Origin: an uncultured Nitrospirota bacterium
Lineage (GTDB): Bacteria > Nitrospirota > Thermodesulfovibrionia > Thermodesulfovibrionales > JdFR-85
Length of the DNA stretch: 62,971 bases
NCBI GenBank assembly: GCA_964515925.1
Contig: CAZEYP010000007.1
Location: 1-62,971, forward strand
Reading direction: 5' to 3'
The notes under the pieces were generated by a model. It did no database searches. It saw nothing but the letters and a program-made list of their open reading frames with translations, and was not told the DNA's origin. Positions 1,760 to 61,235 of the stretch are shown piece by piece. The translations under genes were made by a program, and so were the position numbers. Position 1 is the stretch's first letter; every line of letters starts with the position of its first letter.

Positions 1760-2743
1760 ATGAATAGATTCCCAAAGAAAAAGATTCTTGTAACTGGCGG
1801 TGCCGGTTTTCTTGGCTCCCATCTTTGCGAACGGTTACTTGAAGATGGTAACGAGGTAATCTGTGTAGATAATTTTTATACTGGACAGAAGGCAAATATT
1901 GCCCATTTATTAAATAGTCCTTATTTTGAGGTGATAAGGCATGATATAACCTTTCCACTCTATGTGGAGGTTGACGAGATATACAATCTGGCATGTCCGG
2001 CATCTCCTGTGCACTATCAGTTTGATCCTGTACAGACTACAAAGACCTCTGTTCATGGCTCAATTAACATGCTTGGGCTTGCAAAGCGTCTAAAGATAAA
2101 AATATTACAGGCATCCACATCTGAGGTATATGGCGATCCGTTAGTCCATCCTCAAAGGGAAGATTATTGGGGCAATGTTAATCCAATAGGTCCCCGTTCC
2201 TGTTATGACGAGGGGAAAAGGTGCGCTGAAACCCTGTTTTTCGATTATCACAGGCAATATCGTCTCAGAATAAAGATAGCAAGAATATTCAACACCTACG
2301 GACCAAGGATGTATCCAGACGATGGAAGGGTTGTTAGCAACTTTATAATGCAGGCACTGAGAGGTGAAGATATTACTATTTATGGAGATGGTTCTCAGAC
2401 AAGGTGCTTCTGTTTTGTAGATGATATGATCGATGGTCTCATTAAATTGATGAATAGCCCCGATAGTTTTACCGGACCTGTAAATCTTGGTAATCCTGTA
2501 GAAATAACCATCCTTGAACTGGCACAGATGATTATTGAGCTTACAGGTTCAAGCTCTAAAATTGAGTTTTTACCGCTTCCTGAAAATGATCCACGACGCC
2601 GCAGACCCGATATTACTCTGGCAAGAGAAAAACTCAGGTGGGAGCCAAAAACAGACCTGAGAACAGGACTTTTAAAGACCATAGAATATTTCAGGGGGAT
2701 TATGAATGAAGAAGCTGAGAGTTCTCACTTTCAACTGGCATGA
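1760..2743 (+). CDS. uxs: UDP-glucuronic acid decarboxylase (UDP-xylose synthase), extended SDR family
   Basis: [39 protein letters not shown] motifs; ATG at 1760 preferred to TTG at 1727. Confidence 0.92.
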
Positions 2744-4883
2744 AGGATATATCTATCTGCTTGCCAAGACAGGATTTGATTTTGACGTTGTTGAAGTATG
2801 GAAAGGTGGAAGGTTTGGCTGGATAAAAGAATTTCGTCCTGTTCCAGACAATTGTAGATTAATCCCTGAGGAAGAGGCTTTAGGCAATCTAAAAAAGAAT
2901 ATATATGATGTTGCGATATGTCACAACATTTCTGACCTGCTTAAAGTGGCAGAATTTCCTCTAAAAAAGATATTAATTCATCATAATAGAATTGAGATGG
3001 AGTTTGGTATAAATGATAATGAAAAGGATAGGTTATTAGAAAAGATAAAAGAGCTTTACAGTTCGGTCCAAAACTTAATACTTGTGTTTATCTCTGAGAT
3101 GAAGATGAACAACTGGGGTATTGATGGCGAGATAATATTGCCTGGCATTGATCTCAATGAGTATTACGGATACAGAGGAGAAATAGAGAATGTTTTAAGA
3201 GTGGGTAATATGTTGAAAGAGCGTGATATTATGCTTGGCTATTCAGTACAGGAGAAGCTCCTTAAAGGTCTGCCCTCAACCATTCTGGGACTTAATCCAT
3301 CCATTGAAGAGGCAATAATTCCGAAAGACTGGAACGAATACCGTGAGTATTTAAGAACACACCGTCTTTATCTTAATACAACAATGCCACCTCTTGAGGA
3401 TGGCTATAATCTTTCAATGCTTGAGGCAATGGCTACGGGGATGCCGGTAGTTAGCATTGCCAACCCATCTTCACCAATAGAAAATGGAATAAATGGTTAC
3501 ATATCTGAGGATGGGGATTATTTACAAGAGAGGATTAAAGAGCTACTGAGTAACCCGGAAAAGGCCAGAACTCTTGGCAGTAAGGCAAGAGAAACAGTAA
3601 GAGAAATGTTCTCAATGGAAAGGTTCATTGAATCGTGGACGAAGGTTATTTATGATACTAGTATATCTGTAGCCTCAGCTGTTAAGAAAAGATCAACATG
3701 TTCAAAAAGTAGAGGTGAGGGTTTAAGGATTTTCATGACCTATACGTCAAACCCCCAGACAACTGCCTATTATCTTGAACGAGCATTGAGACAGAACCAC
3801 GATGTTATTACTTTTGGTCCATCAATAGTTGATCCCATATGGGGGTTTGACATACTGAAACAATGGAAGCTTGAACCAATAAGAGAACGAGTGAGAGAGC
3901 ATGATATTCCATATGTAACCGAGAACATAGATGAAGTAGTAGAAAGGCTACAGAAAGAGTCTCTCTGGTATCCACATCTATTTTTCTTTGTTGACACTGG
4001 TATATGGTATCCACTTAATGGAATAGAAAGAATAAATTGTATTAAGGCGTGCTACCTGATCGATGTACATTTAGACATTGAAAGGAGAATAGAAGTTGGA
4101 AAAAACTTTGATTATGTATTCATTGCACAGAGGCAATACATTGATGATTTCAAAAAGGCAGGCATTGAGAGGGTATTCTGGTTGCCGCTTGGCTGTGATC
4201 CTGAAATACATGGTAAAAGAGAGGTTTCAAAGGTGTATGATGTTGGTTTTGTAGGCAGCCTGAACAACACAAAAAGGATAAAGATGTTAGAGAAAATATC
4301 CGAAAAGTTTAATCTACATTACGAGAGGTGCTTTCTTGAAAAGATGGCCGAGGTATACTCAAAGTCGAAAATTGTATTTAATATTTCAGTGAAAAATGAT
4401 CTTAACATGAGGGTGTTTGAGGCACTATGTTCTGGGAGTATGCTTATTACAGATGAGGCGGCAGGCAGTGGACTATCAGAAATGTTCGAGGACCGAAGGC
4501 ATTTAGTAGTTTACCATGATAGTAAGGAAATGCTTGGGTTAATAGAATACTATCTCAAGCATGAAGAAGAACGAGAAGAGATTGCAAGACAGGGGCGAAA
4601 AGAGGTCCTCAGAAAGCATACCTATAAGCATCGCGTTAACAGTATGTTAGAGACCATATTCAGTAATAAAGCCTTAGAGAATGATATGGAAAGTATTGAA
4701 GAAGTTGAAAGATATCTTATGGAGCATCCAGGAGACACAAAGGCACTCCTGAGGTATGCAAAGTTAGCAGCTAATGAAGGCCAGTATGAAATAGCAAAGG
4801 AATCTATTGAAACTGTTTTAGTTTTAGAACCCAATAACAAAAGAGCTTTGCAGCTGATAGACGAGTTGACCAATAAAAGGTAA
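2706..4883 (+). CDS. Two-domain glycosyltransferase (GT4-like plus CgeB/Glyco_trans_1_2-like) with C-terminal TPR
   Basis: First half has [15 protein letters not shown]; second half has [18 protein letters not shown] and [18 protein letters not shown]. Confidence 0.8.
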
Positions 4884-20383: not shown

Positions 20384-20716
20384 TTAACGCCAGAAGGGCA
20401 TTTCGTTGCCATTGTAATTTCCATGATACCCATTGTGTTTACCATAGTTTCTGTTATGATATCTCTGTCTGTAGTTATTATGATTGCCACCGTTTCTGTG
20501 TTGGTTGCCATAGGGAGCATGATTGTTTCCCCAGCCATACATACCGTAAGTACCCATCATACCAGGTCCCATACCATAGCCACCCATCATACCAGGTCCC
20601 ATACCATAGCCACCACCCATATGTCCACCACCCCAGCCACCTGGGCCAAAGGCAAAGGCACCTCCTGTTAGTGCCAGCACTGCCACTACTGTCAAAGTTA
20701 CCAGCAATCTTTTCAT
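20384..20716 (-). CDS. Exported Gly/Met-rich repeat protein (GYGMGPGMMG)
   Basis: AGGAGG before ATG 20716; signal peptide; exact 30-bp tandem repeat at 20552-20611. Confidence 0.75.
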   Translation of the reverse strand: MKRLLVTLTVVAVLALTGGAFAFGPGGWGGGHMGGGYGMGPGMMGGYGMGPGMMGTYGMYGWGNNHAPYGNQHRNGGNHNNYRQRYHNRNYGKHNGYHGNYNGNEMPFWR

Positions 20717-20773
20717 TTCAAACCTCCTTGAGTTTATTAAGGCTGCCAAGGCAACCCTGTTTTCTTAACTTCT

Positions 20774-21809: not shown

Positions 21810-22286
21810 ATGATTAAAGAAAACACCATGGAGGCACGTATGATGAGGTTTGCAAGTTTTATAATTGTTCTATGTTTATTCTCTTTGGTTAGCTGTTCTG
21901 CAAAGTACACACCCAGGTTAGTTCAACACATCAGGGGAAGCAGTTTTAGTGCAACAGAGCATGGCTATTATACAACCGAGCTTGTTATGAAGCCAAGACA
22001 TCCTCATGTGGGTGCAAACAGTGCACACCTGATAATCCACAACTATGATGGTATTGACATGCCAGGGTTAAGGATTTACATTGAGCCCTATCTGCCCTCT
22101 AAAGATATCACCTCACCTGAGAAGCCACATGTTAAGGACGCAGGCAGGGGGCTTTATATTATTGACAACATAGTTTTCCCTGAGCCAGGTGATTGGGTAT
22201 TGAGGCTTAAGATATTTGGAGAGGAGCTTTCAGATCGTGTAACCTTAAAGATTCCAACGGTATCGAATATGTCCATGATGAAATGA
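21810..22286 (+). CDS. YtkA/FixH-like lipoprotein
   Basis: Lipobox LVSC; DAGRGLY...FPEPGDWVL pattern. Confidence 0.6.
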   Translation: MIKENTMEARMMRFASFIIVLCLFSLVSCSAKYTPRLVQHIRGSSFSATEHGYYTTELVMKPRHPHVGANSAHLIIHNYDGIDMPGLRIYIEPYLPSKDITSPEKPHVKDAGRGLYIIDNIVFPEPGDWVLRLKIFGEELSDRVTLKIPTVSNMSMMK

Positions 22287-22290
22287 TAAT

Positions 22291-22626
22291 TTATTTGAAT
22301 TGAGTGAACCTCCCCGACCTTTGGTCGGGGAGGTTCACTGTGTATTTGCCAGGTGGAAGGTTTTTCTTTAACTTAGTCTCCATGATGGTATCATCTTCCC
22401 TGAAAATGGTCCTGCCTGATACCTTTTTTCCTCTTTCATTATAGACCTCGATTTTTGAAAAGGCTGGCTCTACCGAACCAACAAAGGTTATTGTTACCCT
22501 GTCAGGAGGTGTTGTTAATGATGAGCCTGGTTCAGGACTGTACTGAAGGGTATAAATATGTGCCCTGGCTTTTACGGAAATCAGTATCAACAGAAATAAG
22601 AAAATTATTGTAATTGACCTTTTCAT
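22291..22626 (-). pseudogene. copC: CopC copper-resistance protein, C-terminus lost at a palindrome
   Basis: Signal peptide and mature N-terminal His (ARA-H), P.PG...PD.V.I.F; the sequence after PPGKYT is palindrome-derived and lacks the usual C-terminal DGH strand. Confidence 0.8.
22303..22339. repeat. 37-bp palindrome, copy 1 (IS200/IS605 right-end-like hairpin)
   Basis: AGTGAACCTCCCCGACC-TTT-GGTCGGGGAGGTTCACT; exact reverse complement of 30155-30191. Confidence 0.95.
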
Positions 22627-22684
22627 GTTACCTACTCCTTAATACTTAATTTTAGCACAAAAATATAAAAGTTAGAATATGCTA

Positions 22685-25471
22685 TCAGTGTATATGCCTT
22701 CCGTTCATTGGTAGCCCAATCATATAAAATGTGACAGTTACTGTTATTACTGCATATATAACCATAGTTAACGCTATTTTAGCCATGCTGTAAAAAGTTA
22801 TATTAAGTCGCTTGAGTGTTCTGTAAAGCAGGTATAAGGCAAAAATAAAGCCTGATACAATACTTAACATCTGAAGAGTAAATGCAAGCTTACTTCCTAT
22901 GATTGGCATTGGGTTCCAGTTTATACTGTAGGAACTGAAAAGCCCGACTTTTCTAAGTAGCCTTATCGTTGCAGGAACTGCAACAGGAGCCTCAACAAAG
23001 AGATGATTCATGTTATGAGCTAAATGTAATCCAATCCCAAGGGGTATAAAGGGAAAGGCAAGCTCCTTTATGAGCAGCTTTGCACTAATCTCTTCTTTGA
23101 CGATCCATCTTGAAAGTCCATAGCAGAAGATAATAAATAGAAGAGCTGGCAATGTAATAATTATTATGTATGTAATGCTGAATATGGTTGTGCCTGATGT
23201 GTAGATTCCAAGAAGACCAGCAAGGTATTTCTTTATTTGAGGAAATGCAGAGGTCATTGAAAGTGTTTCAAATAAAACTATGCCGAATAATATGAGCGAT
23301 GCCATAGCTTCGATCGATGATCTTCTCATACCATTGATAATATCCCTGCCAAATCCTCTGTATTTGATGCTCAGGTTGTTGCCTGGACAGGAATGAAGAC
23401 ATTTCATGCAAAAATTACAGTATAAATTGCTGTCTAAGTTGTAGGGGTCTTCAAGCATAGGGCAGGTTGATGAGCAGGTTTTGCTCCTGTGATTAGTGCA
23501 TTTAATTTTACTGTTTGAGGTGATCTTGAATGGTGAAATAAGGGAGTAAAGTCCTATAACAGCACCTATAGGACAGATATATCTGCAGAAGGTTCTCCTC
23601 TGGAATATTATGCTTACCATGACAGAAGCAACAAGTATCCCTATTATTAAAAGCGATGTTGCAAAGGGCTTCTGATAGAGTGAATAATGGGCATAGGCAA
23701 AGGTGAGGGCTACAAAAGCAATTATCTGAAAGCCCATGTTTTGCAGCCACTGTGGAAGTCTTTTCTTTAATGATATAAACCTTTGTGCAATATCTCCTAT
23801 AAAGGCAAAGGGACACATCATGCACCAGAGTCTTCCAAACAGGATAAAACTGAAGATTATCAAACTCCACCATAATGTCCATGTATAGACAGTTGCAATG
23901 TTCTGTCTTCCATCCTGTGTATCAAGAGCTCCTGCAAAAATAATTACAATGAAAATCAGAAGAACCGGTATTGTAAAAATACTTCTGTAGTACTTTGAAC
24001 TGACCAACCCTTTCAATGCTTGGTATCTGAAAAGGTCAACATCCTTTGTTTTCCGAGATGTATCAATTCGAGTGTCCTTTGTTTTTATAAAAAGAAAGGC
24101 CATTCCCAGAAGCCCTATAAATATTGTTGAAATATTAATGTAGTTAACCAGCAATGCACGATTGCTAATACCTGAAGTTATATGTCCAGCATAATGGTAA
24201 TGGGTTTCATTGCGTGATGGATCAAGTCCTGATACATAAGTTGTAAATGAGGGCTCTGCTTTATTGCCAAAGATATCTGTTTGTGGTGGTGTGCCAATTC
24301 TTAGAGTGGTTTCATTACTTGCCCAGACATCTGCATGTTCTTTGTTGTTTTTAGAATGGGCGTGATTTTTATGCGCTGGATCCATAGTGAATATCCCGTA
24401 ATGCTCAAGTGTATTCCCTACCACAACAAGCATGTTGTATGCCCTTCCTTTGATAAATTCTATATCCTCTCTGTCACCGGTATTAAGCGGAAATGCAAAT
24501 TCATAGGTGTATAGATTATCCTGTCTTGATGAAGCAGCAATGATATTATCCATCCTGTCTCTCTTAAGAAAGAAAGTTCCGTTCTGTCTCTGTATGAAGT
24601 GTCTATCGGTAATCTCACCATTTGACTTCAACACCTTCGCATCCTTGTATGACCAGAGCATCCCCAGATTCGGATCGTCTTTGAACAGAAGACCTATCCA
24701 GTAGGGAGTATCAGTTTTTACTGCAAAGTATATGTTGCCATTGGATATTTGTGACCATATCTCTACATGGTAAAAGGGCTTTTTATGGGGTTGATTTTGC
24801 TTGTGAGGACTGAACTCTCCAATATAGAAGTACCTGTGTCCCGTATTTTTCCATTCATCTTCAGAGATAATGCCATCGATTTTGATGGTATTGCCTGTAT
24901 TTCTTGCTATAAAGTTTGTGTCGTCAGAAATGTATGGACCGTATTTCAGTTGTTCTACCTCATGTATATCTTCAGGATTATACCTTGCCAGTAACTGTCC
25001 AGGTGCCGCTCCACAACCGTTTGCTATGAAGAGTTCACCTGTCAGGGCATCCACATCAAGTATCAGGTGATCAACGATAAAGTTGACAGGACCTAAGTGA
25101 TACTTACCATTGTACCCAGAAAGTTGATCAATTGATTCATATTGATATATAAGCCTTCCGTGGACAAGTTCCAGTTTGCGAAATTTGAACCCCCTCTTAA
25201 GATAAGGCACCTTCTCTCTGACAAATTTATTTACTATTGCTTCAGCCCTGGCAGGAGATATTTTTACCTTTGAACGATTAAAAAGGAGATTGCCATTGCG
25301 GTCAAAGTACATATGGCCCCTTGAGGTGGAGATTTTTTTGAATGCAGATTCTGATGGTTTATCATCAAGTATTACATTGACCCCTCCACAGGCAATTGCC
25401 AGTGAATACAAAAGAAGCAGAAAAACAATTGCAAGGTTTGATAAAAGAAGATATTTTTTCCTTAATATCAT
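22685..25471 (-). CDS. 928-aa exported/membrane protein: soluble N-terminal domains (DOMON-like) fused to a NapH/MauN-type 4Fe-4S polyferredoxin membrane domain
   Basis: IDGIISEDEW; WCMMCP, FCRYICPIG and CNFCMKCLHSCP motifs; many TM segments. Confidence 0.75.
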   Translation of the reverse strand: MILRKKYLLLSNLAIVFLLLLYSLAIACGGVNVILDDKPSESAFKKISTSRGHMYFDRNGNLLFNRSKVKISPARAEAIVNKFVREKVPYLKRGFKFRKLELVHGRLIYQYESIDQLSGYNGKYHLGPVNFIVDHLILDVDALTGELFIANGCGAAPGQLLARYNPEDIHEVEQLKYGPYISDDTNFIARNTGNTIKIDGIISEDEWKNTGHRYFYIGEFSPHKQNQPHKKPFYHVEIWSQISNGNIYFAVKTDTPYWIGLLFKDDPNLGMLWSYKDAKVLKSNGEITDRHFIQRQNGTFFLKRDRMDNIIAASSRQDNLYTYEFAFPLNTGDREDIEFIKGRAYNMLVVVGNTLEHYGIFTMDPAHKNHAHSKNNKEHADVWASNETTLRIGTPPQTDIFGNKAEPSFTTYVSGLDPSRNETHYHYAGHITSGISNRALLVNYINISTIFIGLLGMAFLFIKTKDTRIDTSRKTKDVDLFRYQALKGLVSSKYYRSIFTIPVLLIFIVIIFAGALDTQDGRQNIATVYTWTLWWSLIIFSFILFGRLWCMMCPFAFIGDIAQRFISLKKRLPQWLQNMGFQIIAFVALTFAYAHYSLYQKPFATSLLIIGILVASVMVSIIFQRRTFCRYICPIGAVIGLYSLISPFKITSNSKIKCTNHRSKTCSSTCPMLEDPYNLDSNLYCNFCMKCLHSCPGNNLSIKYRGFGRDIINGMRRSSIEAMASLILFGIVLFETLSMTSAFPQIKKYLAGLLGIYTSGTTIFSITYIIIITLPALLFIIFCYGLSRWIVKEEISAKLLIKELAFPFIPLGIGLHLAHNMNHLFVEAPVAVPATIRLLRKVGLFSSYSINWNPMPIIGSKLAFTLQMLSIVSGFIFALYLLYRTLKRLNITFYSMAKIALTMVIYAVITVTVTFYMIGLPMNGRHIH

Positions 25472-25506
25472 TGATAAAATACCTCAGCAAAGTTATTAAC
25501 TGTTTT

Positions 25507-25588
25507 AGCCTAACTTATAATTATGAAAAAATTATGAAGAAGTTATGTTTATCCTCTTCACATTTTTTTCACATTTGGACATTACAAT
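25507..25588. promoter_or_regulatory. Divergent pair of TTCAYA-N5-TTCAYA-N9-(-10) promoters
   Basis: Minus strand: boxes 25533-25538 and 25522-25527 with TAGGCT. Plus strand: TTCACA 25557 and 25568 with TACAAT 25583-25588. Confidence 0.7.
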
Positions 25589-25589
25589 T

Positions 25590-26330
25590 ATGGAAATGGT
25601 AGAAATATCCTATCCATTAGCCTTTATGGCTGGCATCGTATCTTTTATTTCTCCCTGTGTCCTTCCTCTTATTCCATCTTATCTCTCTTATATAACGGGT
25701 ATATCCTTTGAGGAACTGACAAATAAAGCCAGCATAAATAAGGTCTGATACCTGAGTCTTGCTCATGCAATCTTTTTTGTAACTGGTTTTTCTATTGTAT
25801 TTATATCGTTAGGAGCTTCTTCATCAGTAATTGGTAAGGTCTTAAATAATTATCAGGATGCGATAAGGATTTCTGGTGGAATAATGATAATTATCTTCGG
25901 ACTGTTTATTGCAGATGTAATCAAGATAGATTTCCTGCTCAGAGAGAGAAGGCTTAACTTTGCAGAAAAACCTGCGGGGTATTTAGGAACTTCCCTGGTA
26001 GGAATGGGCTTTGCTGCAGGCTGGACTCCCTGCATTGGTCCGATTCTCGGCAGCATTCTGATGTATGCTGGTGCACATGGCTCTGTATCCTATGGTGTTA
26101 AACTACTTGGTGTATATTCGTTTGGTCTTTCCTTACCATTTATAATATCGGCCGTTGGATTTAACTTCTTTTTAAGTTATTCCAGAAAAATTTTAAGACA
26201 CATGAAGACCATCAAGATTATTTCAGGAATTTTTCTTATTATTTTTGGTATCCTTCTGTTTTCTAATATGATTAGCGAACTTTCTGGTCTTTTCCCTGAT
26301 TTCGGTCTTGATCTTCCTCTTCCAAAATAA
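25590..26330 (+). pseudogene. ccdA: Cytochrome c biogenesis protein CcdA with an in-frame TGA
   Basis: SFISPCVLPLIPSYLS and FAAGWTPCIGPILG motifs lie in one frame across TGA 25746-25748 (NKV*YLS). Confidence 0.88.
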
Positions 26331-26338
26331 ATTTAAGT

Positions 26339-26381
26339 TTCATAATGCTTTCATATTTTCTTCATATTTTATTTTTAGAAT
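26339..26381 (+). promoter_or_regulatory. Three TTCATA boxes at 11-bp spacing plus a TAGAAT -10 element
   Basis: Boxes at 26339, 26350 and 26361; TAGAAT at 26376-26381. Confidence 0.75.
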
Positions 26382-26389
26382 ACCCCTGA

Positions 26390-26887
26390 ATGATGAGGTA
26401 CAAAAAGCACATTGGTTTTTTAGTCTTGTTGGCAGTATTTCTTACCTTTAATGGCAAGGGTGTACAGGCAAAGGAGGTTACATTAATGGATGTGGAAAGG
26501 GTTACTGACCTGCTTATGAGCCCGGGGTGTAATTATATGTACACACTGACCAACTGTCCATCGGCTGAGGCAGAGCAGATGAGAGAAATCGTAAGAGATA
26601 AACTGTGAAACGGTGAGTCCACCGAGGCCATACTGAATTACTTTGAAGAGATTTATGGCCCCAGGATGCTGGCACAGCCAAAGAAAAAAGGCTTTTATTT
26701 CATTGCCTGGTGGTTTCCCTATTTTTTGATATTTGATGTATTCCTCCTGATAGGTCTGATTTTATATATCTGGCAAAAAAGGGGTAAAAGTGATAGTACA
26801 ACTTCAGAGCGGTCTGAACCTGACGACAGGGATGAGGCTGAAATAGAGGCGCTCCTTGAAGAGGAGCTGAGGATGTTTAAGGGATGA
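26390..26887 (+). pseudogene. ccmH: CcmH/NrfF-like protein with an in-frame TGA
   Basis: LMSPGC...NCPSAEAEQMR; frame continues over TGA 26606-26608 (DKL*NGESTEAILNYFEEIYGPRMLAQP). Confidence 0.75.
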
Positions 26888-27448
26888 AGAACTTTCTGAG
26901 AAGCCTATTTATTATCCCTTTTTTCATACTGGTGGTTGCACTATTAACCGGAGTATTTTCAGGTAAAGAAAAAACAGCTAAAAAACACCCCCGCCCAACA
27001 ATAGGTGAGAAGGCAAGAGACTTTGCCTATCCAGACCTGAATGGAAAAAGTAAGGCTTTCGGATTACTTTGGCAAGAAAGTGATATTTTTGAATATCTGG
27101 GCAACCTGGTGTACTTCCTGTAAAAAGGAGTTACCAACCGTGCAGAGGATGTACGAGAAACTAAAAGGCGACGACCTTGTGGTTCTTGCAGTAAGCATAG
27201 ATGCACTTGGCAAGAAGGCTGTTGAGCCCTTCATGAAGAAATACGGCTCAGATTTTCCTGTTTTGCTCGACACCACAGGCTCGATTCAGCTTCTCTATGG
27301 AACCACTGGTGTGTCTGAGACCTTCATTATAGACAAAAGCGGAAAGATTGCCTATGTGGAGATTGGCGCAGGAGACTGGACCGACCCAGAAAAAGAGGCA
27401 CTGCATAGTGATTCCCTACAGGACAATGGTTATTTCACCTCAGGATGA
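26884..27448 (+). pseudogene. TlpA/ResA thiol-disulfide oxidoreductase, frameshifted
   Basis: TM anchor and ARDFAYPDLNG in one frame, NIWATWCTSC in the next; shift at A-run 27045-27049; C-terminus appears to run into the next gene near 27395. Confidence 0.8.
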
Positions 27449-28146
27449 GCATACATTACAGGTATTCGAGGTGATAATTGTAAAGAATACGGGGAAGACC
27501 ACATTTGTTGGGAGATTTAATGATGAACTTGATACCGAGCAGGTGCTGTTCGTACCTCTTCCCATGGGCTACAGGTTGAGCCAGGTTATGGGTTTAAATA
27601 CCAGAAAGATACTCACATTCAATGGTGGTATTGTTACACAGGATGTTGTAACACCAGGAGAAAGGGAGATTGTTATTGGATATCTACTAAAAAGCGATAC
27701 AGGTTTTTTGACCTAACGCTTCACCCTGCAGACAACAGCCCTTATCCAGAAAGATTTAACCTCCTTGTCAGAGACGACAGCAGGTGGAAACTAAAGGTTT
27801 CGGGTCTTGAAGAGTCGGGAAAAACAAATTTTTACGGAAAACAGTTCAGGGTATGGACCGGAATGCCAGGGCCTGGACTGAGGGCAGCTCTTTACAGCCC
27901 TGCTTACAAAAGTGCATATAGCAGCTGGTTTCTTGTGTTAATTTCAGGTGTCCTGGTTACCACAGTTATTCTTTTTGCTGGTAGAAAAAGGATCATGGCC
28001 TACTATCAAAAAAGGGAAAAAGAGGAACTGGAAGAGGTTCTTTCTTATCTTGAAGCCAATTCCCCAGAGGGTTCAACGGATACAGAACTTTTGCAGAGCT
28101 TTTAAAGAAAAGGCTAACAGCTCTATCAGAAAGGACAGAGCAATAG
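27395..28146 (+). pseudogene. 5'-truncated, frameshifted ccm-associated membrane protein
   Basis: No start or signal; frame shifts at T-run 27704-27709 and possibly at G-run near 28069; the alternate-frame tail ends with TAG immediately before the ccmA ATG. Confidence 0.5.
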
Positions 28147-28821
28147 ATGCTGTACATGAAGGATGTATCAAAGACCTATGGGCTGAGACCTGTATTAAAT
28201 GGGATAAATATAAACATTAATAAGGCAGAGGTCTTTGTGCTTTTTGGTCACAATGGCGCTGGAAAGACCACCATGCTCAAAATAGCCGCTGGTATTATGT
28301 CACCTACCAGTGGAAAGGTGGTCTATGAAGACGATACATTAAGAAAGGGTGGTATCTTCTACCTCGGCCACAAAAACAGCCTCTATACTGAACTGACCGT
28401 GTTGGAGAATATAAGATTTTTCCTCAGCTTAAGAAACGTTGCAGGTGCCGCTGTAAGAGACACTCTTTCAGAGTTTGGTCTCTGGCAGAGAAGAAACGCC
28501 CCCGTGAAGTCGCTCTCACAGGGAATGAAGAGGAGGCTTGCCCTCATGAAGGCAATATTAAGTGGTGCCAGGTTGATTGTGCTTGACGAGCCCTTCTCGG
28601 GGCTTGACCTCAGATGGAAGGATACGGTGTTGGAGTGGCTGCTTGCTCTTAGTGCAGAGGGGCGTTCACTGCTTGTTGCAACTCATCTGGTTCAAGAGGG
28701 CTGTCAGATTGCAGACAGGGTGGGGCTACTTGAAAGGGGGGAACTGACGGTGATGCACGAAAAGTCACAGATTGATGATGCCCTTATACAGGAGAGGTTA
28801 AAGCATGAGGTTTGTAAGTAA
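28147..28821 (+). CDS. ccmA: Heme exporter ATP-binding subunit CcmA
   Basis: GHNGAGKTT Walker A, LSQGMKRR and LDEPFSGLD; context. Confidence 0.85.
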   Translation: MLYMKDVSKTYGLRPVLNGINININKAEVFVLFGHNGAGKTTMLKIAAGIMSPTSGKVVYEDDTLRKGGIFYLGHKNSLYTELTVLENIRFFLSLRNVAGAAVRDTLSEFGLWQRRNAPVKSLSQGMKRRLALMKAILSGARLIVLDEPFSGLDLRWKDTVLEWLLALSAEGRSLLVATHLVQEGCQIADRVGLLERGELTVMHEKSQIDDALIQERLKHEVCK

Positions 28822-29486
28822 CACGATTTCCATTGTAAGAAATGACATACTTCTTGAGCTAAGGGCAAAAGAGGCCCTGAGCATAATGGTCTTTCTTTCT
28901 CTTTTACTGCTTGTTGTGTTCAACCTTGCCGTTGACATAGACAGAGAAAATGTTTCCTCCCTTGCATCAGGTATCCTCTGGGTGGTATTTGCCTTCTCAG
29001 GTGTGCTGGGCATGGGTAAGACATCACTTTCTGAACGTGAAGACAGTGCCTATCTGAATGTGTTTTTCTCAGCCGTTTCAATGGAGACCTTTTACATTGC
29101 AAAGGTTATTAGCAACCTGATATTTCTGCTCCTGATGGAGTTTTTTACCATGGTATCATTTGTGGTGCTTTTCAATTACGAGCCCCTGGTAGGGAAATTG
29201 CCATCTCTTGTGCTTCCCATTGTGCTTGGAAGTATTGGGTTTTCTGCGGTAGGCACCCTGTTTTCTTTCCTATCAACGGGTTCGAGGTTTGGCGAGATAA
29301 TACTCCCCTTTCTGTTTTTTACCTGTGGTGGTGCCGGTGATTATAGGAGGTGTGTCAGCAACTGACCTTATCCTGAATGATACAACAGTGGAGTCACCCA
29401 TTAAGTGGATAAAGCTACTTGTTGTGTTCGACCTGTTATATATGAGCATATCGCTAATGCTTTTCAGGTTTATTGTGGAGGAGTAA
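28805..29486 (+). pseudogene. ccmB: Heme exporter permease CcmB, +1 frameshift
   Basis: GILWV.FAFSG; removing one T from run 29315-29320 gives LPVVVPVIIG...FRFIVEE* ending at 29486. Confidence 0.88.
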
Positions 29487-29490
29487 TGGT

Positions 29491-30154
29491 ATGAAATCTA
29501 TTAAGCTAACGAGGGCACTGCTTGTAGTGCTGTTTTTTATGTTTCCACTCTGCTTCTATTTGATCTTTCAGGTGCTCCGACCGAGAGAATCATGGGCGAT
29601 GTGCAGCGGATATTTTATCTGCATGTTTCATTGGCAGTAAGCGCTTATCTTGGATTTGGTGTGCTGTTTTTTTCAAGCATACTATATCTGATTAAGAAGA
29701 GCCTTTACTGGGACAGCCTTGCAAGTTCAGCAGGTGAGGTGGGACTTCTGTTTTCTACCCTTGTTCTCATAACCGGCTCGTTATGGGCACGGCCTGTCTG
29801 GAATGTGTGGTGGACTTGGGACCCCAGGCTTGTTACCATGCTGATACTCTGGTTTATCTACATTGGCTATTTCATGATAAGAAAGGCGGTTACAGAGAAG
29901 ACCAGAAGGGCGAGGTATTCGGCAATTGTTGGAATTATCGGGTTTCTTGATGTCCCGGTGGTGAGGCTTGCCACCAGGTGGTGGAGGTCAATACACCCAC
30001 GACTGGACAGGGAATCAGGTGGCCTTGATCCACTGATGGTAAAGGTTATGATCTTCAGTCTTGTAACATTTTTGATATTTGCAGCGGTATTGATATTTGT
30101 GAGATTCAGGATTGCCTGGACTGAAGAGCGTTTGAACACAATAATCTCTCTATC
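29491..30154 (+). pseudogene. ccmC: Heme exporter CcmC, frameshifted near the 5' end; 3' end fused to a palindrome
   Basis: ATG 29491; shift near 29566-29568; QRIFYLHV, GSLWARPVWNVWWTWDPRL and WWRSIHP (WWD motif). Confidence 0.88.
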
Positions 30155-30191
30155 AGTGAACCTCCCCGACCAAAGGTCGGGGAGGTTCACT
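30155..30191. repeat. 37-bp palindrome, copy 2
   Basis: AGTGAACCTCCCCGACC-AAA-GGTCGGGGAGGTTCACT. Confidence 0.95.
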
Positions 30192-30503
30192 TTAGCAGGG
30201 TTTGGGCTTGCCTTTCTCCTTGGCATACCCTTTTCCATGTCATTCTGTCCATTCTGCGTGCCTGTGGTTCTTAGTATTCTGACAGTGGCTGCTGCCACTG
30301 GAAAACTATGGTACTCTGCCCTTCTTATGTTATTCTTCTCACTTGGCAGGGGGATTCCGCTTGTTATTGCAGGGGTATAGGTTGGTGCATTTAAAAAACT
30401 GCAAAGATTAAAAGCCTACCTCAAGTGGATTGAAAAGTTAGGAGGGGTAATACTTCTGCTAATGGGCCTTTATTATCTTTACGATGTGTTGACCCTCTAC
30501 TGA
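30192..30503 (+). pseudogene. 3' fragment of a second CcdA/DsbD-family gene with an internal TAG
   Basis: FCPFCVPVV, GRGIPL, then AGV*VGAFKK...WIEKLGGVILLLMGLYYL*; TAG at 30378-30380. Confidence 0.75.
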
Positions 30504-30562: not shown

Positions 30563-31165
30563 TCAGCTTATTCCTTGCCCCGGTCCGCCGGTAGTGTTTG
30601 ACGACTTTGAAAGCTCCTTCTCAAAGACCTCATAGAGTCTGAGTTCCATCCTGAATGTCCTGAGTTTCAGGGTCTCATCCCAGTTGTAAATCTCTGGTGG
30701 GCCGTATTTTTTGTTTTTCAGCACATACCGCTCAAGATACTCCCTGTCAGGAAAAACTATTATATATTCCTTAACGCCAAACCTCTCATAAAGGGCCTTC
30801 TTTTCCCGACGGTCCTTCAGTTCCGTGGCAGGAGAGGTTATCTCTATTACAAGATCAGGGGCGCCCTGAATATTGTCTTCTGTGATCTTCTTCTTTGAGC
30901 AGACAACGAACAGATCAGGCTGAACCACATTGAACTCATCAAGCACCACATCCGTGGGGGCATAAAAGGGAATACAACTTTTTAAGGCATCCTTGTTGTT
31001 TACAAATACCTCGGTTAGTCTCCACAAAATCCTCTGGTGTCTGGTCTTAGGTGCAGGTGACATAGAGTAGGCCTGCCCATCAATCAACTCCCACCTCTCA
31101 TCATCAGGCCATCTGAGGTAGTCCTGGTAGGTGAACCGCCTCTGTTTCTTAAGTGCAAGTGGTAT
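30563..31165 (-). CDS. Uma2/DUF820 endonuclease-fold protein, copy 1 (start codon position reads ATA; possibly inactive)
   Basis: WELIDG...MSPAP, VVQPDL, PDLVIEITSP; ATA at 31163-31165 aligns with the ATG of copy 2. Confidence 0.8.
   Translation of the reverse strand: MPLALKKQRRFTYQDYLRWPDDERWELIDGQAYSMSPAPKTRHQRILWRLTEVFVNNKDALKSCIPFYAPTDVVLDEFNVVQPDLFVVCSKKKITEDNIQGAPDLVIEITSPATELKDRREKKALYERFGVKEYIIVFPDREYLERYVLKNKKYGPPEIYNWDETLKLRTFRMELRLYEVFEKELSKSSNTTGGPGQGIS
30614..31158. repeat. 545-bp direct repeat, copy 1 (Uma2 coding sequence)
   Basis: Appears identical by eye to 34683-35227 (offset 4069). Confidence 0.92.
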
Positions 31166-34638: not shown

Positions 34639-35240
34639 TTCCCTGAACTTTTTCCGGGTTCTTTATCATTGCCCTCTTTTGACTCCTTCTCAAAGACCTC
34701 ATAGAGTCTGAGTTCCATCCTGAATGTCCTGAGTTTCAGGGTCTCATCCCAGTTGTAAATCTCTGGTGGGCCGTATTTTTTGTTTTTCAGCACATACCGC
34801 TCAAGATACTCCCTGTCAGGAAAAACTATTATATATTCCTTAACGCCAAACCTCTCATAAAGGGCCTTCTTTTCCCGACGGTCCTTCAGTTCCGTGGCAG
34901 GAGAGGTTATCTCTATTACAAGATCAGGGGCGCCCTGAATATTGTCTTCTGTGATCTTCTTCTTTGAGCAGACAACGAACAGATCAGGCTGAACCACATT
35001 GAACTCATCAAGCACCACATCCGTGGGGGCATAAAAGGGAATACAACTTTTTAAGGCATCCTTGTTGTTTACAAATACCTCGGTTAGTCTCCACAAAATC
35101 CTCTGGTGTCTGGTCTTAGGTGCAGGTGACATAGAGTAGGCCTGCCCATCAATCAACTCCCACCTCTCATCATCAGGCCATCTGAGGTAGTCCTGGTAGG
35201 TGAACCGCCTCTGTTTCTTAAGTGCAACCGGCATGTTCAA
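34611..35240 (-). CDS. Uma2/DUF820 endonuclease-fold protein, copy 2
   Basis: Same motifs as copy 1; intact ATG. Confidence 0.88.
   Translation of the reverse strand: MNMPVALKKQRRFTYQDYLRWPDDERWELIDGQAYSMSPAPKTRHQRILWRLTEVFVNNKDALKSCIPFYAPTDVVLDEFNVVQPDLFVVCSKKKITEDNIQGAPDLVIEITSPATELKDRREKKALYERFGVKEYIIVFPDREYLERYVLKNKKYGPPEIYNWDETLKLRTFRMELRLYEVFEKESKEGNDKEPGKSSGNYSISKRAK
34683..35227. repeat. 545-bp direct repeat, copy 2
   Basis: Matches 30614-31158. Confidence 0.92.
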
Positions 35241-35868: not shown

Positions 35869-36516
35869 ATGAAACGAATGTTGTTATTAATTATTGTAGC
35901 CCTTGGGTTAATGGCAGGTTCAGCCTTTGCTCAGATGGGTAATATGATGGGGCAGGGTATGATGGGACAGCCTCAGCAGGAGCAGGCACCTGTACAGCAG
36001 ATGCCCTACCAGATGGGCCCTGGTGCAGGATATGGTTACGGAATGATGGGTCCAGGTATGATGGGTGGTTATGGAATGGGCTATGGAATGATGGGGCAAG
36101 GTTATGGTATGGGCCCTGGCATGATGGGTGGTTACGGCATGGGGCCTGGCATGATGGGTTATGGTGGCGGCTATGGAATGATGGGTAGAGGAATGGGCCC
36201 CGGAATGATGATGGGCCCTGGGATGATGGGAATGATGCACAGAATGATGATGGGCCCGGGAATGATGGGTTATGGAATGATGGGCCCTGGCTATGGAATG
36301 GTTCCTGGATACTCAAAGGAGTATCAGAAATTTCTTGATGAAACCCGTGATCTCAGAAAAAAGTTGAATGAAAAGAGGTTTGAGTATTTTGAGGCTCTGA
36401 GGGACCCAAAAACAAAGCCTGAGACTTTAACAAAGTTAAGAGACGAGATAGTTAAACTTCGCAGAGAGATATACAAAAAGAACCCCTTTGCAGGTTTCGG
36501 CTGTTATGGTTATTAA
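35869..36516 (+). CDS. Exported Gly/Met-repeat protein with ZraP/Spy-like helical C-terminus
   Basis: Signal peptide; many GMMGPG repeats; YQKFLDETRDLRKKL...EIVKLRREI. Confidence 0.75.
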   Translation: MKRMLLLIIVALGLMAGSAFAQMGNMMGQGMMGQPQQEQAPVQQMPYQMGPGAGYGYGMMGPGMMGGYGMGYGMMGQGYGMGPGMMGGYGMGPGMMGYGGGYGMMGRGMGPGMMMGPGMMGMMHRMMMGPGMMGYGMMGPGYGMVPGYSKEYQKFLDETRDLRKKLNEKRFEYFEALRDPKTKPETLTKLRDEIVKLRREIYKKNPFAGFGCYGY

Positions 36517-43350: not shown

Positions 43351-45789
43351 ATGAAGGTAAAAGATCCCGTATGTGGTATGGAGATCGAAGAGTCCGAGGC
43401 AAAGGCAAGGGAAACCCACAATGGGCAAACCTACTATTTCTGCTCAGAAGGCTGCAGAGATAAATTTGTTAAATCCCCCGAGACCTATGTGCATCACAAG
43501 CACGATCATCGTGAACACACCACCAGCGAAGAGCCGTTAAAAACCTCAGAAGAGACAGAATACACTTGTCCCATGCATCCTGAGGTCAGACAGAAAGGGC
43601 CAGGTAATTGTCCCAGGTGTGGTATGGCACTGGAGCCTGTAATCCCTGTTACCAAAAAGGCTCCCGAGGGTGAAACCCTGTGGACATGCCCCATGCATCC
43701 AGAGATTATAAAAGACAGCCCTGGCAACTGTCCTATATGTGGTATGGCACTTGAGCCAAAAACTGCTACATCGGAGGATGAGGAAAATCCAGAACTCATT
43801 GACATGACCCGAAGGTTTAAACTTGGTGTTGTGCTCACAATACCTCTTTTAATCATAGCAATGGGTGAATATGTGCCCGGGGTGTCAAATCTTCTTGATA
43901 TGCTGCCAGCAGGAGTTCTTAAATGGACAGAGTTGATTCTGGCAACGCCTGTTGTGCTCTGGTCAGGCTTGCCCTTTTTTGTGAGGTTCTGGCAGTCAAT
44001 AGTCAATAAAAGCCCCAATATGTTTACCCTGATCGGGCTTGGCGTGGGAGTGGGGTATATCTACAGTGTGGTGGCAACTGTGTTTCCAGGAATTTTCCCC
44101 GAGGCATTCAGAGATGCCGAGGGAGGAGTTGGTGTGTATTTTGAGGCATCAGCCGTGATTGTGGTGCTTGTTCTCCTTGGTCAGGTGCTTGAACTGAGGG
44201 CACGAAGCAAGACAGGTGCTGCCATCAAGGCCCTGCTGGGACTTGCTCCGAAGACTGCCCGTAGAATAAAGGATGGTGTGGAAGAGGACATTCCCCTTGA
44301 GCATGTTAAACCTGGCGATCTGTTAAGGGTCAGACCAGGGGAGAAGATTCCTGTTGATGGGGTGGTTGTGGAAGGCACAACAAGCGTGGATGAATCTATG
44401 GTAACTGGCGAGCCGATTCCTGTTACCAAAGGCCCTGGAGACAGGGTTATTGGAGCGACCGTAAATGGAACAGGTTCTATTGTGATTAAGGCTGAAAAGG
44501 TTGGTGCCGATACCCTGCTATCGCAGATTGTGCAGATGGTGGCAGAGGCACAGCGTAGCCGTGCCCCAATACAGAAACTTGCTGATGTGGTGGCAAAGTA
44601 TTTCGTTCAGATAGTGGTGGCAATTGCGGTTGCAACCTTTGTGGTGTGGGCATGGATTGGGCCTGACCCCAGGATGGCCCATGCACTTATAAATGCAGTG
44701 GCTGTGCTGATAATCGCATGCCCCTGCGCCCTTGGGCTTGCCACACCCATGTCTATAATGGTTGCCACTGGAAAGGGTGCCACAATGGGTGTGCTTTTCA
44801 AGAATGCAGAGGCAATAGAGATAATGCGTAAGGTCGATACCCTGGTTGTGGACAAAACCGGCACCCTCACCGAGGGAAGACCAAAACTTGTTAAGGTGTA
44901 CCCTGCCGAGGGTATGGATGAGAAGGAACTGCTCAAATATGCCTCTTCAATCGAGCAGGCAAGTGAGCATCCCCTTGCCGAGGCTATAGTAAAAGGTGCA
45001 AAGGAAAAGGGTATTGAGCCGGCAAAGATAGATGATTTTGAGTCTGTTACAGGTAAGGGTGTAAAGGGAAAGGTTCAGGGCCATGAGGTTGCCCTTGGTA
45101 ATCAGAAACTGCTTGAGGACCTTGGAATTGATGTAACGGCTCTGAACAGGGTTGCTCAGGAGATGAGGGCTGAGGGACAGACGGTGATGTTTGTTGCAGT
45201 GGATGGAAGGCCTGCCGGGCTTATTGGGGTGGCTGATCCGATTAAAGAGACCACGCCTCTGGCCATTAAGGAACTCCATGAGGAGGGCATAAGGGTTGTA
45301 ATGATGACAGGGGATAACAAAACCACAGCAGAGGCAGTGGCAAGAAGGCTTGGCATAGACGATGTTATTGCAGGTGTGCTGCCTGATCAGAAGGCAGAGA
45401 AGGTAAAGGAACTCCAGGCACAGGGAAGAATTGTTGCAATGGCTGGCGATGGCATTAATGATGCACCTGCCCTTGCACAGGCTCATGTGGGTATTGCTAT
45501 GGGAACCGGAACTGATGTGGCAATGGAATCAGCAGGGGTAACTTTGATAAAGGGAGACCTTAGAGGCATAGTAAGGGCAAGAAGACTTAGCCGTGCCACC
45601 ATGCGTAACATCAAGCAGAACCTGTTCTGGGCCTTTGCATACAACGCCCTCGGTGTACCCATCGCAGCAGGGGTGTTATATCCATTCTTTGGGCTGCTCC
45701 TCAGTCCTGTATTTGCAGCAGCAGCCATGAGCTTCAGCTCTGTCTCTGTGGTAGGAAATGCCCTCAGGCTTAAGAGAGTGAGGATTTAG
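43351..45789 (+). CDS. copA: Cu(I)-translocating P1B-type ATPase with YHS and two CPMHP metal-binding domains
   Basis: [25 protein letters not shown] and YN...MSFSS; N-terminal DPVCGM/FCSEGC and two CPMHP..C..CGM repeats. Confidence 0.95.
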
Positions 45790-56106: not shown

Positions 56107-56499
56107 AAACGGCAACCAATAGCCGAATACCTTATGGGAGGATAGGGTTATGAAGATGGTATCTGCAGTTATTAAACATTACAGGCTTGATGAGGTAAGG
56201 GCAGAGTTGATAAAGGTTGGGGTGCAGGGGATGACAATTGTGGATGTAAAGGGATTCGGTCGTCAGAAGGGTCAGCTTGAGGTTTACAGAGGTGTTCAAT
56301 ATGAGGTGCAGTTTCTACCCAAGGTGAAGATTGAGGTAGCAGTGCCGGCTGAGAAGGTGGAGGAGGTAATAGATGCTATTACAAAAGGAGCCCGCACAGG
56401 AGAGATCGGAGACGGCAAGATATTTGTTTACAATCTGCAAGATGTGGTAAGGATAAGGACAGGAAGGAGGGGGAGAGAAGCGATATAAATATAGGGGGT
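56107..56499 (+). repeat. 393-bp exact duplication (leader plus P-II gene), copy 1
   Basis: Identical to 62532-62924 (offset 6425). Confidence 0.93.
56150..56488 (+). CDS. glnK: P-II nitrogen regulatory protein (Tyr51 present)
   Basis: GFGRQKG, YRG.QY and TGEIGDGKIF; lies upstream of amt. Confidence 0.95.
   Translation: MKMVSAVIKHYRLDEVRAELIKVGVQGMTIVDVKGFGRQKGQLEVYRGVQYEVQFLPKVKIEVAVPAEKVEEVIDAITKGARTGEIGDGKIFVYNLQDVVRIRTGRRGREAI

Positions 56500-59556: not shown

Positions 59557-61235
<1,679 letters not shown>

What the first reader, a model, noticed from the sequence alone, without database searches (positions are those of the whole stretch)
22303..30191. Two copies of a 37-bp perfect palindrome, each at a gene breakpoint
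Seen: AGTGAACCTCCCCGACC-WWW-GGTCGGGGAGGTTCACT at 22303-22339 and 30155-30191, exact reverse complements of each other. Copy 1 truncates copC. Copy 2 joins ccmC to the 3' half of an unrelated ccdA. In both cases the upstream gene reads through in the same frame (VNLPDQRSGRFT). Simply inverting the 7.8 kb between the copies does not restore copC or ccdA. Known: a GC hairpin followed by ...GGGGAGGTTCAC resembles right ends of IS200/IS605 (TnpB) elements. Inference: each palindrome looks like two right ends fused through a shared hairpin. It may be a non-autonomous REP/MITE-like element that causes deletions and fusions in trans, or an assembly chimera at IS ends. No tnpA or tnpB is in the window.
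Basis: partly seen in the sequence, partly recalled or inferred. Interest (0 to 1): 0.75.

Follow-up and report, generated by a model that had tools for sequence, protein, structure and literature searches.

The report
Palindromic deletion scars of IS200
The two 37-bp perfect palindromes are real leftovers of a small jumping gene (an IS200-type insertion sequence): its right-end hairpin survives, its 8-base tail is mirrored on both sides, and at least at the first copy about 1 kb of host DNA was lost; this is a recurrent but probably inert scar, not a new mobile element or an assembly error.

Summary
Both palindromes stand in three independent metagenome assemblies and in k=31 unitigs of two runs, at twice genome depth, so they are not an assembly chimera.

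The core, CCCCGACC-TTT-GGTCGGGG + AGGTTCAC, is the right end (RE) of a tnpA-only IS200. Intact copies lie in other metagenome contigs, and one stands in the source community at genome-like depth. Each palindrome is this RE with its tail mirrored across the hairpin.

A 95%-identical relative has 1,051 bp (copC 3' end, all of copD, part of the spacer) where the window has 37 nt. It reads TTTAC|TGTGTATT exactly where the window reads TTCAC|TGTGTATT. That is a canonical IS200 target junction. The left side of P1 and the right side of P2 are not canonical; P2 right shows (T)CACT microhomology, and P1 left may.

No copy has TTTAC beside it, the RE guide GAAG is replaced by ACCT, and the genome holds only two copies. 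A trans-mobilised MITE/REP is therefore unlikely.

Best reading: a scar left when a single IS200 copy, plus host DNA on its left-end side, was deleted by a fold-back template switch at the RE hairpin. Similar palindromes with other flanks occur in two unrelated metagenomes, so the scar recurs.

Interest is moderate. It is a new variant of a known kind.

The parts
22303..22339 (+). Palindrome P1. A + inverted copy of the RE tail (22304-22311 GTGAACCT) + IS200 hairpin (22312-22330 CCCCGACC-TTT-GGTCGGGG) + genuine RE tail (22331-22338 AGGTTCAC) + first flank base T (22339). The canonical TTT loop is on the + strand, so the RE points right.
   Evidence: RE identity with intact IS200 copies. Right junction canonical.
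30155..30191 (-). Palindrome P2, the exact reverse complement of P1. The TTT loop is on the - strand, so the RE points left, into ccmC.
   Evidence: Present in L051 and L052.
22340..22626 (-). copC remnant: residues 1-97 of 118, cut exactly 3' of the ancestral TTTAC target.
   Evidence: Relatives L057 and L062 read ...CACTTTAC|TGTGTATTTGCC.
22287..22302 (.). Spacer after the YtkA-like gene. 22287-22296 is homologous to relatives. 22297-22302 (GAATTG) has no clear counterpart and forms the left, non-canonical junction of P1.
21810..22286 (+). YtkA-like gene, intact. It is the natural neighbour of the copD-copC pair that P1 has partly replaced.
29491..30154 (+). ccmC pseudogene. It has a frameshift near 29589. 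Homology to relatives ends at 30142 (residue ~220 of 227). 30143-30154 (AATCTCTCTATC) cannot be aligned.
30192..30502 (+). DsbD_2/CcdA-like pseudogene remnant. It starts at about codon 8, has an internal ~336-nt deletion, and has an in-frame stop at 30378-30380.
22340..30154 (.). The 7.8-kb segment between the palindromes, in ancestral order and orientation. It holds copC', a 928-aa polyferredoxin-like gene, and a decayed ccm operon (ccdA', ccmH', trx', ccmA, ccmB', ccmC'; ccmE and ccmF are missing).
   Evidence: It forms a single 7,873-nt unitig.

Best explanation
Each palindrome is a scar of one IS200 insertion. IS200 here means a tnpA-only member of the IS200/IS605 family that moves as single-stranded DNA using a Y1/HUH transposase.

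Shown: the element inserted 3' of TTTAC, and its right-end hairpin plus 8-nt tail are still joined to the original target flank.

Inferred: a single replication error then removed the transposase gene, the left end, the TTTAC and host DNA on the left-end side (1,051 bp at P1). The steps would be:
1. The strand being copied from the RE strand passed the tail and the hairpin.
2. It folded back on its own new hairpin.
3. It re-copied the tail, 8-9 nt, stopping at the TnpA cleavage position. A possible reason is that the template flank was cut and capped by TnpA.
4. Its ...TTCAC(T) end re-annealed further along the template at a short (T)CACT microhomology.

This leaves tail'-hairpin-tail, a perfect 37-bp palindrome, between two truncated neighbours. 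The scar has lost the RE guide and has no left end, so it should be immobile.
For: Reality of the feature:
- Three assemblies carry both copies.
- The P unitig stands at 232x against ~102-124x flanks. S is one 7,873-nt unitig ending inside both copies.

IS200 origin:
- The 28-nt hairpin + tail ends intact elements that encode a 140-aa TnpA. TnpA matches Pfam Y1_Tnp at E = 1.6e-42. It also matches PDB TnpA chains of ISDra2 and IS608 at 1e-27 to 1e-22.
- LE and RE carry the same hairpin. The cut sites are TTTAC|GAA... and ...TTCAC|T, with guides AATG and GAAG as in IS608 (PMC3201880).
- An IS200 89% identical to L048, with an identical RE, stands in the source run at depth 100.8. Its RE joins at least 3 different flanks.

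Empty site:
- L062 (93.5-95.4% identical) has YtkA-like, copD and copC intact.
- Its positions 2460-3510 (1,051 bp) correspond to window 22297-22333.
- It reads CACTTTAC|TGTGTATTTGCC at the P1 right junction. L057 reads the same, and X6/X7 contigs run on through an intact copC there.
- That is the only top-strand TTTAC|T in 1.1 kb. TTTACT occurs about 3e-4 per position per strand in the window.

The other junctions are not canonical:
- No GTAA lies within ~40 nt of the P1 left junction in L062.
- A paralogue reads ...CATA|TCACTTTAGCAGG at the P2 right junction, giving a TCACT overlap.
- The canonical TTT loop faces the junction shown to be canonical.

Background: template switching at inverted repeats is known to extend repeat arms (PMC13100816, PMC8604942; abstracts).
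Against: - The fold-back step is inferred, not observed.
- 6 nt (GAATTG) beside P1 and 12 nt beside P2 have no counterpart in relatives. The microhomology at P1 left (AGT/AGTG) therefore depends on a gapped alignment.
- The P2 junctions could be tested only against a paralogue and against 74-83% relatives.
- Arms are 8 nt + T in every instance seen (window twice, X8; at least 8 nt in X7). A plain polymerase slip would give variable lengths, so the model needs an added assumption that TnpA cutting sets the stop.
- P1 and P2 require IS copies in opposite orientations within 8 kb. This family normally shows a strand bias.
Confidence: 0.5

Rival explanations
1. Collapse of an inverted IS200 pair. 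Two copies inserted about 1 kb apart in opposite orientation, left ends facing each other and right ends outward. Because the hairpin stem is palindromic, the two outer REs carry 8-nt direct repeats (CCCCGACC or GGTCGGGG). Palindrome-stimulated slippage or single-strand annealing between these repeats deleted both copies and the DNA between them. What remains is tail'-hairpin-tail.
For: - It explains the fixed 8-nt arms + T automatically. Every RE flank seen begins with T.
- It explains the loss of the intervening host DNA and the absence of a target duplication.
- The P1 right junction is canonical.
Against: - It predicts a canonical TTTAC|T on the opposite strand at the second junction. The 95% relative has no GTAA within ~40 nt of the P1 left junction.
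- The paralogue reads ATCAC|T, not TTTAC|T, at the P2 right junction.
- It needs four insertions in two inverted pairs plus two deletions, against the family's strand bias (PMC6006769 abstract).
- 8-nt repeats are short compared with the 25 bp used experimentally.
Confidence: 0.2
2. One reading: the 37-bp palindrome is a non-autonomous REP/MITE-like element. TnpA supplied in trans mobilises it, or cuts it on both strands, and this causes deletions and gene fusions where it lands.
For: - P-type palindromes with other flanks occur in two unrelated metagenomes that are rich in the same RE.
- Both strands of P carry hairpin + TTCAC|T.
- REPs are known to resemble IS200/IS605 hairpins and are processed by related Y1 enzymes (PMC3333891, PMC3479197).
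Against: - P has no left end, and no TTTAC flanks any of the six flanks seen.
- The RE guide GAAG, which IS608 needs for complex formation and cleavage, is replaced by ACCT.
- This genome holds exactly two copies (unitig depth).
- No full palindrome was found in 185,579 reference genomes or in the JGI metagenome contigs searched.
- At P1 the ancestral TTTAC itself is deleted.
Confidence: 0.08
3. Assembly or library artefact: a chimeric join at IS ends or hairpins.
For: The sequence is palindromic, both copies lie at gene breakpoints, and k=31 unitigs alone cannot phase the four flanks.
Against: - Three independently assembled JGI metagenomes give the same arrangement, with identical palindromes and >=99.9% identity overall.
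- P depth is exactly twice the flank depth, and no alternative path exists at these loci.
- The P1 flanks are natural neighbours in relatives.
- RE and its reverse complement share only 8 nt, too little for a graph chimera at k >= 21.
Confidence: 0.02
4. A selected functional palindrome, such as a terminator, a protein-binding site or a recombination site, that only happens to resemble an IS end.
For: The hairpin is very stable, -21 kcal/mol. P is fixed in the population across samples.
Against: - No T-run follows on either strand.
- Rfam gives only one sub-threshold chance match.
- Both copies sit among pseudogenes.
- P is absent from the orthologous sites of close relatives.
- The 28-nt identity with a real IS end and the canonical target junction are not plausibly coincidence.
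Confidence: 0.03

Closest known systems
IS200 group of the IS200/IS605 family (IS608 and ISDra2 are the studied models)
   Same: - The 8-bp GC hairpin + AGGTTCAC is the right end of intact tnpA-only elements.
- Insertion is 3' of TTTAC without duplication.
- The LE and RE layout is as in IS608: LE cut site 18 nt 5' of the hairpin, RE cut site 8 nt 3' of it.
- The 4-nt guides lie 5' of the hairpin foot: AATG with TTAC, and GAAG with TCAC.
   Different: The window holds no tnpA, no left end and no RE guide. Only the RE hairpin remains, with its tail present on both strands. It is a remnant, not an element.
Palindrome-stimulated deletion and quasi-palindrome template switching (the Ripley-type model, DIRex/MIRAGE, inverted-repeat arm expansion)
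   Same: A hairpin-forming repeat lies at a deletion junction. A short stem (8 bp) has been extended to a perfect long one (17 bp). Microhomology is present at the far junction.
   Different: The hairpin comes from a transposon end. The arm length is the same in independent events and coincides with the transposase cleavage position, which the general mechanism does not predict.
REP / REPIN elements with RAYT (TnpA-REP) enzymes
   Same: Short GC-rich palindromes related to IS200/IS605 subterminal hairpins. A REPIN is a doublet of inverted half-sites that forms one long hairpin.
   Different: REPs are intergenic, number tens to hundreds per genome, carry a conserved 5' GTAG-type tetranucleotide and co-occur with a RAYT gene. 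Here there are two copies, both inside gene remnants at deletions.
PATEs and MITEs derived from IS200/IS605
   Same: Non-coding derivatives of the same IS family.
   Different: PATEs keep both LE and RE and the target motif, and they are mobilisable. P has two RE tails and no LE or target motif.

Membership tests
IS200/IS605 insertion sequence (autonomous) | Encodes a Y1/HUH transposase TnpA | tested here: not met
   tblastn of two family TnpAs against the window gives no hit better than E = 0.6. TnpA is present in the related elements L045, L046 and L048.
IS200/IS605 insertion sequence (autonomous) | Subterminal hairpins at both a left end and a right end on the same strand | tested here: not met
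   Only one hairpin per copy. The LE sequence GAATAATGCGATTGAATG is absent.
IS200/IS605 insertion sequence (remnant of) | The right-end sequence is identical to that of intact family members | tested here: met
   28/28 nt CCCCGACCTTTGGTCGGGGAGGTTCACT in five contigs. In four, a tnpA ORF or tnpA 3' end visibly lies just upstream; L049 shows a similar upstream sequence. The same RE is in the source run.
IS200/IS605 insertion sequence (remnant of) | Insertion 3' of the family's target tetra/pentanucleotide, without target duplication | tested here: met
   P1 right junction: relatives read TTTAC|TGTGTATT where the window reads TTCAC|TGTGTATT. The other three junctions are not canonical or not testable.
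IS200/IS605-derived MITE / PATE | Both LE and RE are retained, with the target motif 5' of the element, so that TnpA can excise it | tested here: not met
   There is no LE. The 5' flanks are GAATTG, CTGCTAA, AATACAC and CTCTATC, and in other runs CACCAAT and AAAGAAA; none ends in TTAC. The guide GAAG is replaced by ACCT.
REP / REPIN | High copy number, intergenic location, an associated RAYT gene | tested here: not met
   The genome holds two copies (P unitig at 2x depth). Both lie in gene remnants. No Y1 gene is in the window. The rest of the genome was not searched for a RAYT.
Intrinsic transcription terminator | GC-rich hairpin followed by a T-run | tested here: not met
   The sequence after the stem is GTGTATTTGCC or TTAGCAGG on the + strand and CAATTCAAAT or GATAGAGAG on the - strand. 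None is a T-run.
Assembly chimera | The junction is not reproducible in independent data | tested here: not met
   The arrangement is reproduced in 3 JGI assemblies and in Logan unitigs of 2 runs. Raw-read spanning could not be checked, because only contigs are held for these runs.

The most novel reading that the evidence does not exclude
Double-right-end palindromes may be a regular, TnpA-dependent by-product of IS200 activity: an abortive excision that is resolved by fold-back. They would then accumulate as stable hairpins. Because both strands carry hairpin + TTCAC|T, they could remain substrates for Y1 enzymes and act as hotspots for further breaks. They could also be the raw material from which REP/REPIN-type palindromes and their domesticated RAYT enzymes evolve.
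Probability: 0.12. Interest if true: 0.75.

Novelty: new variant of a known kind. Interest (0 to 1): 0.45.

Why it matters
IS200/IS605 elements are usually described as excising and inserting seamlessly. These scars suggest a second outcome. At the one fully reconstructed site (P1), the element is lost together with about 1 kb of neighbouring DNA, leaving a perfect palindrome built from its right end.

The signature tail'-hairpin-tail is easy to search for. It would let IS200-linked gene loss be counted in genomes and metagenomes, and P-type palindromes already appear in three unrelated datasets here. It also gives a concrete, testable route from a transposon end to a long perfect hairpin of the REP/REPIN type.

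For annotation, the lesson is practical. The copC' read-through and the ccmC'-ccdA' 'fusion' ORF are artefacts of such scars in a decaying locus, not new genes.

Tried and rejected
- **Sequencing adapter or mate-pair linker.** I recalled no known linker matching the palindrome. The RE is found in natural IS200 copies, so this was dropped.
- **Half-site in 185,579 reference genomes.** 44 single hits, mostly in actinomycete and other unrelated MAGs and isolates, about the number expected by chance by my estimate. None is palindromic.
- **Viral contigs.** Nothing found.
- **Inversion or intramolecular replicative transposition of the 7.8 kb.** Rejected, because the segment is in ancestral order and orientation relative to both sides.
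- **LE-RE fusion by recombination between the identical LE and RE hairpins (a minimal MITE).** Rejected. The LE 5' arm (GATTGAATG) does not resemble P's left arm (AGTGAACCT).
- **T as part of the RE.** Rejected. Both L045 and L048 start TTTAC|GAA, so the T restores the reading frame of the interrupted RHS gene as flank.
- **Homologue search with the 103-aa DsbD_2 remnant.** No hits, so the last word-indexed protein search was wasted. The HMMER representative search then found a 233-aa homologue at 77% identity, too distant to test the junction.
- **P2 left junction.** I tried to show it is canonical. Relatives at 74-83% identity cannot be aligned over the last 12 nt.
- **Rfam.** One chance-level hit only.
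- **IS flanks seen in runs X1, X6, X7 against all held loci.** None found.
- **15-nt flank shared between P2 and an X6 element.** It may be chance; similar AG-rich 15-mers with <=3 mismatches are common in the window.

Full report
**1.

The 37-nt sequence AGTGAACCTCCCCGACC-TTT-GGTCGGGGAGGTTCACT is at 22303-22339. Its exact reverse complement (loop AAA) is at 30155-30191. The window has four half-site matches against 0.07 expected, and none of 100 shuffles reaches four. The inverted identity extends one base further, to 38 nt. As single-stranded DNA either strand forms a 17-bp stem, -21.4 kcal/mol, z about -11.6.

copC on the minus strand matches CopC only up to residue 97 of 118, then reads VNLPDQRSGRFT through P1. 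ccmC reads the same peptide through P2 into a DsbD_2-type fragment.

**2. It is not an assembly artefact**

The window is part of a hydrothermal-vent Nitrospirota contig. The same arrangement, with both palindromes identical, is present in three separately assembled JGI metagenomes.

In Logan k=31 unitigs of two runs:
- the 38-nt palindrome is a separate node at 232x, between 1x nodes of 102-124x;
- the 7,873 nt between the copies form one unitig that ends inside both palindromes;
- no alternative path leaves these loci.

The genome therefore has exactly two copies. Raw reads were not available, only contigs.

**3. What the sequence is**

A scan of metagenome contigs with hairpin + tail found five contigs. 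In each, CCCCGACC-TTT-GGTCGGGG-AGGTTCAC ends a short element and is followed by unrelated flank. In L045, L046 and L048 the hairpin lies a few bases after the stop of a 140-141-aa ORF. That ORF is a Y1 transposase:
- Pfam Y1_Tnp, E = 1.6e-42;
- PDB matches to Sulfolobus, ISDra2 and IS608 TnpA, E = 1e-30 to 1e-22.

There is no tnpB, so these are IS200-type elements of about 0.55 kb.

The same hairpin occurs at the left end. In L048 and L045 the element reads TTTAC|GAA(T/C)(A/T)ATGCGATTGAATG-hairpin ... AGAAG-hairpin-AGGTTCAC|T. This is the IS608 layout: LE cut site 5' of the hairpin, RE cut site 3' of it, and 4-nt guides at the hairpin foot (PMC3201880). Here the guides pair as AATG with TTAC and GAAG with TCAC.

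P is therefore GTGAACCT-hairpin-AGGTTCAC. The RE tail is present on both strands around one hairpin, with one flanking T on each side.

**4. An IS with this end stands in the source community**

Laying the source runs on L048 shows a 560-nt unitig, TTTTAC + LE ... RE + T. It is 89% identical to L048, with an identical RE. Its depth is 100.8, the same as the genome. Its RE joins at least three different flanks, at depths 46.5, 22.9 and 14.5, and all three start with T.

The split flanks suggest that the element is polymorphic or active.

**5. What happened at P1**

Relatives are colinear with the window on both sides:
- L057, 76-85% identical;
- L062, 93.5-95.4% identical.

Both carry YtkA-like ->, <- copD, <- copC intact. 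L062 positions 2460-3510 (1,051 bp) correspond to window 22297-22333 (37 nt). These 1,051 bp comprise the last 21 codons of copC, all of copD and part of the spacer. The flanks of P1 are therefore natural neighbours, and the 7.8-kb segment is in its ancestral orientation.

At the right junction the relatives read ...CACTTTAC|TGTGTATTTGCC, where the window reads ...GGTTCAC|TGTGTATTTGCC. Contigs of still other samples (X6, X7) run through an intact copC at the same place. That TTTAC|T is the only one on that strand in 1.1 kb. The motif occurs about 3e-4 per position in the window. This junction is the signature of a canonical IS200 integration.

At the left junction the 95% relative has no opposite-strand TTAC within about 40 nt. 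Six bases (GAATTG) have no clear counterpart. A 3-4-nt overlap (AGT/AGTG, which is CACT on the other strand) is possible, but it depends on how the alignment is gapped.

**6. What happened at P2**

ccmC lacks only about 7 codons. Relatives continue ...ACAAT|CTTTAATGAAATGG into ccmD. The last 12 nt before P2 cannot be aligned, so the expected canonical junction is untestable.

On the right, window 30187-30224 matches (34 of 38) the very start of a paralogous DsbD_2 gene in the same metagenome (ATG CAA ATA CTC TCA CAT ATC ACT TTA GCA GGG...). Window 30209-30352 matches the same gene 336 nt further on. The remnant is therefore cut at about codon 8 and separately carries an internal deletion and a stop codon. 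By this comparison the ancestral sequence read ...ATA TCACT|TTAGCAGG. That is a 5-nt overlap with the RE tail, not a TTTAC target.

The whole neighbourhood is decaying:
- ccdA, ccmH, trx, ccmB and ccmC are broken;
- ccmE and ccmF are deleted.

**7. Mechanism**

Shown:
- the palindromes derive from an IS200 RE;
- one junction is canonical;
- 1,051 bp of host DNA is replaced at P1, and the IS body, LE and target are absent from both copies;
- one further junction (P2 right) shows RE-tail overlap rather than a target motif, and P1 left has no target motif.

Inferred: a single IS insertion at each site was followed by one replication error.
1. The nascent strand copied tail and hairpin.
2. It folded back on its own hairpin.
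3. It re-copied the tail.
4. It re-annealed ahead on the template through (T)CACT.

This deletes everything on the LE side and leaves a perfected palindrome. Template switching at inverted repeats is known to extend repeat arms (abstracts of PMC13100816 and PMC8604942). The canonical TTT loop faces the junction shown to be canonical, as this model requires.

The weak point is arm length, which is 8 nt + T in every instance. I therefore propose that the stop is set by TnpA cutting at TTCAC|T: the template flank beyond that point is capped by covalently bound enzyme. This is speculation.

The main rival is collapse of an inverted IS pair through the 8-nt direct repeats that a palindromic stem creates. 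The principle is documented for long inverted repeats flanked by direct repeats (PMC5576700). It gives fixed arms for free. However, it predicts canonical targets at both junctions, which two junctions fail to show. It also needs four insertions against the family's lagging-strand bias.

**8. Not a mobile element**

- P has no LE.
- None of the six flanks seen ends in TTAC.
- The guide GAAG, required in IS608, has become ACCT.
- There are only two copies.
- No full palindrome was found in the reference genomes or in the metagenome contig set searched.

**9. The scar recurs**

P-type palindromes of 36-37 nt, with 2-3 mismatches and different flanks, stand in two unrelated datasets:
- X7, a 2024 metagenome;
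- X8, a marine-sediment metagenome.

Both datasets are rich in the plain RE, at summed depth about 200, against about 9-22 for the P-type contigs. The scar is therefore a repeated outcome for this IS lineage. This is the main reason it is more than a curiosity.

**10. Verdict**

This is a real, explained feature: the relic of a known transposon family, in an unusual and apparently undescribed palindromic form tied to deletion. My full-text searches found no description of it. Interest is moderate, and it is a new variant of a known kind.

Noticed in passing
window 25545-30154: The cytochrome c maturation operon is a string of pseudogenes. ccdA has an internal loss and a stop, ccmH an in-frame stop, and trx, ccmB and ccmC frameshifts. 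ccmE, ccmF and a 123-aa gene are deleted at about 27393-27411 without any palindrome. Only ccmA looks intact.
   Followed up: partly
window 30614-31158 and 34683-35227: Two 545-nt exact direct repeats, covering most of a Uma2-family gene, bracket about 3.5 kb (ArsR-type regulator, broken TlpA-like gene and others). A second assembly of the same population (L051) has one repeat copy and lacks the 3.5 kb.
   Followed up: partly
window 56107-56499 and 62532-62924: A second pair of exact direct repeats, 393 nt long and 6.4 kb apart. A 133-nt segment, 71% complementary, lies inverted at 59688-59820.
   Followed up: no
window 30192-30502: The DsbD_2-like remnant right of P2 appears to have lost about 336 nt by recombination between the gene's own internal repeat (TM1 motif ...AFLLG and second-half motif ...AFFLG). 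It also carries an in-frame TAG at 30378.
   Followed up: partly
run X1 unitig laid on L048 5431/5432: Relative to L048, the IS200 copy of the source community carries a 37-nt palindromic insert, TCCCTGCCTTTCCCATTTAGGGAAAGACAGGGATGCG, between its left-end hairpin and the tnpA start.
   Followed up: no
window 30141-30155 versus a 3,709-nt contig of run X6: An IS200-type right end of another subtype in X6 is followed by a flank resembling the 15 nt next to P2 (TGATAGAGAGATTAT) before diverging. This could be chance in AG-rich sequence, or a flank carried along with the element.
   Followed up: partly
window 20384-20749 (-) and 35938-36308 (+): Two genes encode Gly/Met/Pro/Tyr-rich repeats (GYGMGPGMMGG...). 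They lie near copper and heavy-metal genes: YtkA-like, CopC, MerR, and two HMBD-like CxxC repeats at 43564-43757.
   Followed up: no
L048 3523-7621: In this metagenome contig the intact IS200 interrupts one of three tandem RHS-repeat toxin-like genes. The paralogues give the uninterrupted target sequence.
   Followed up: partly
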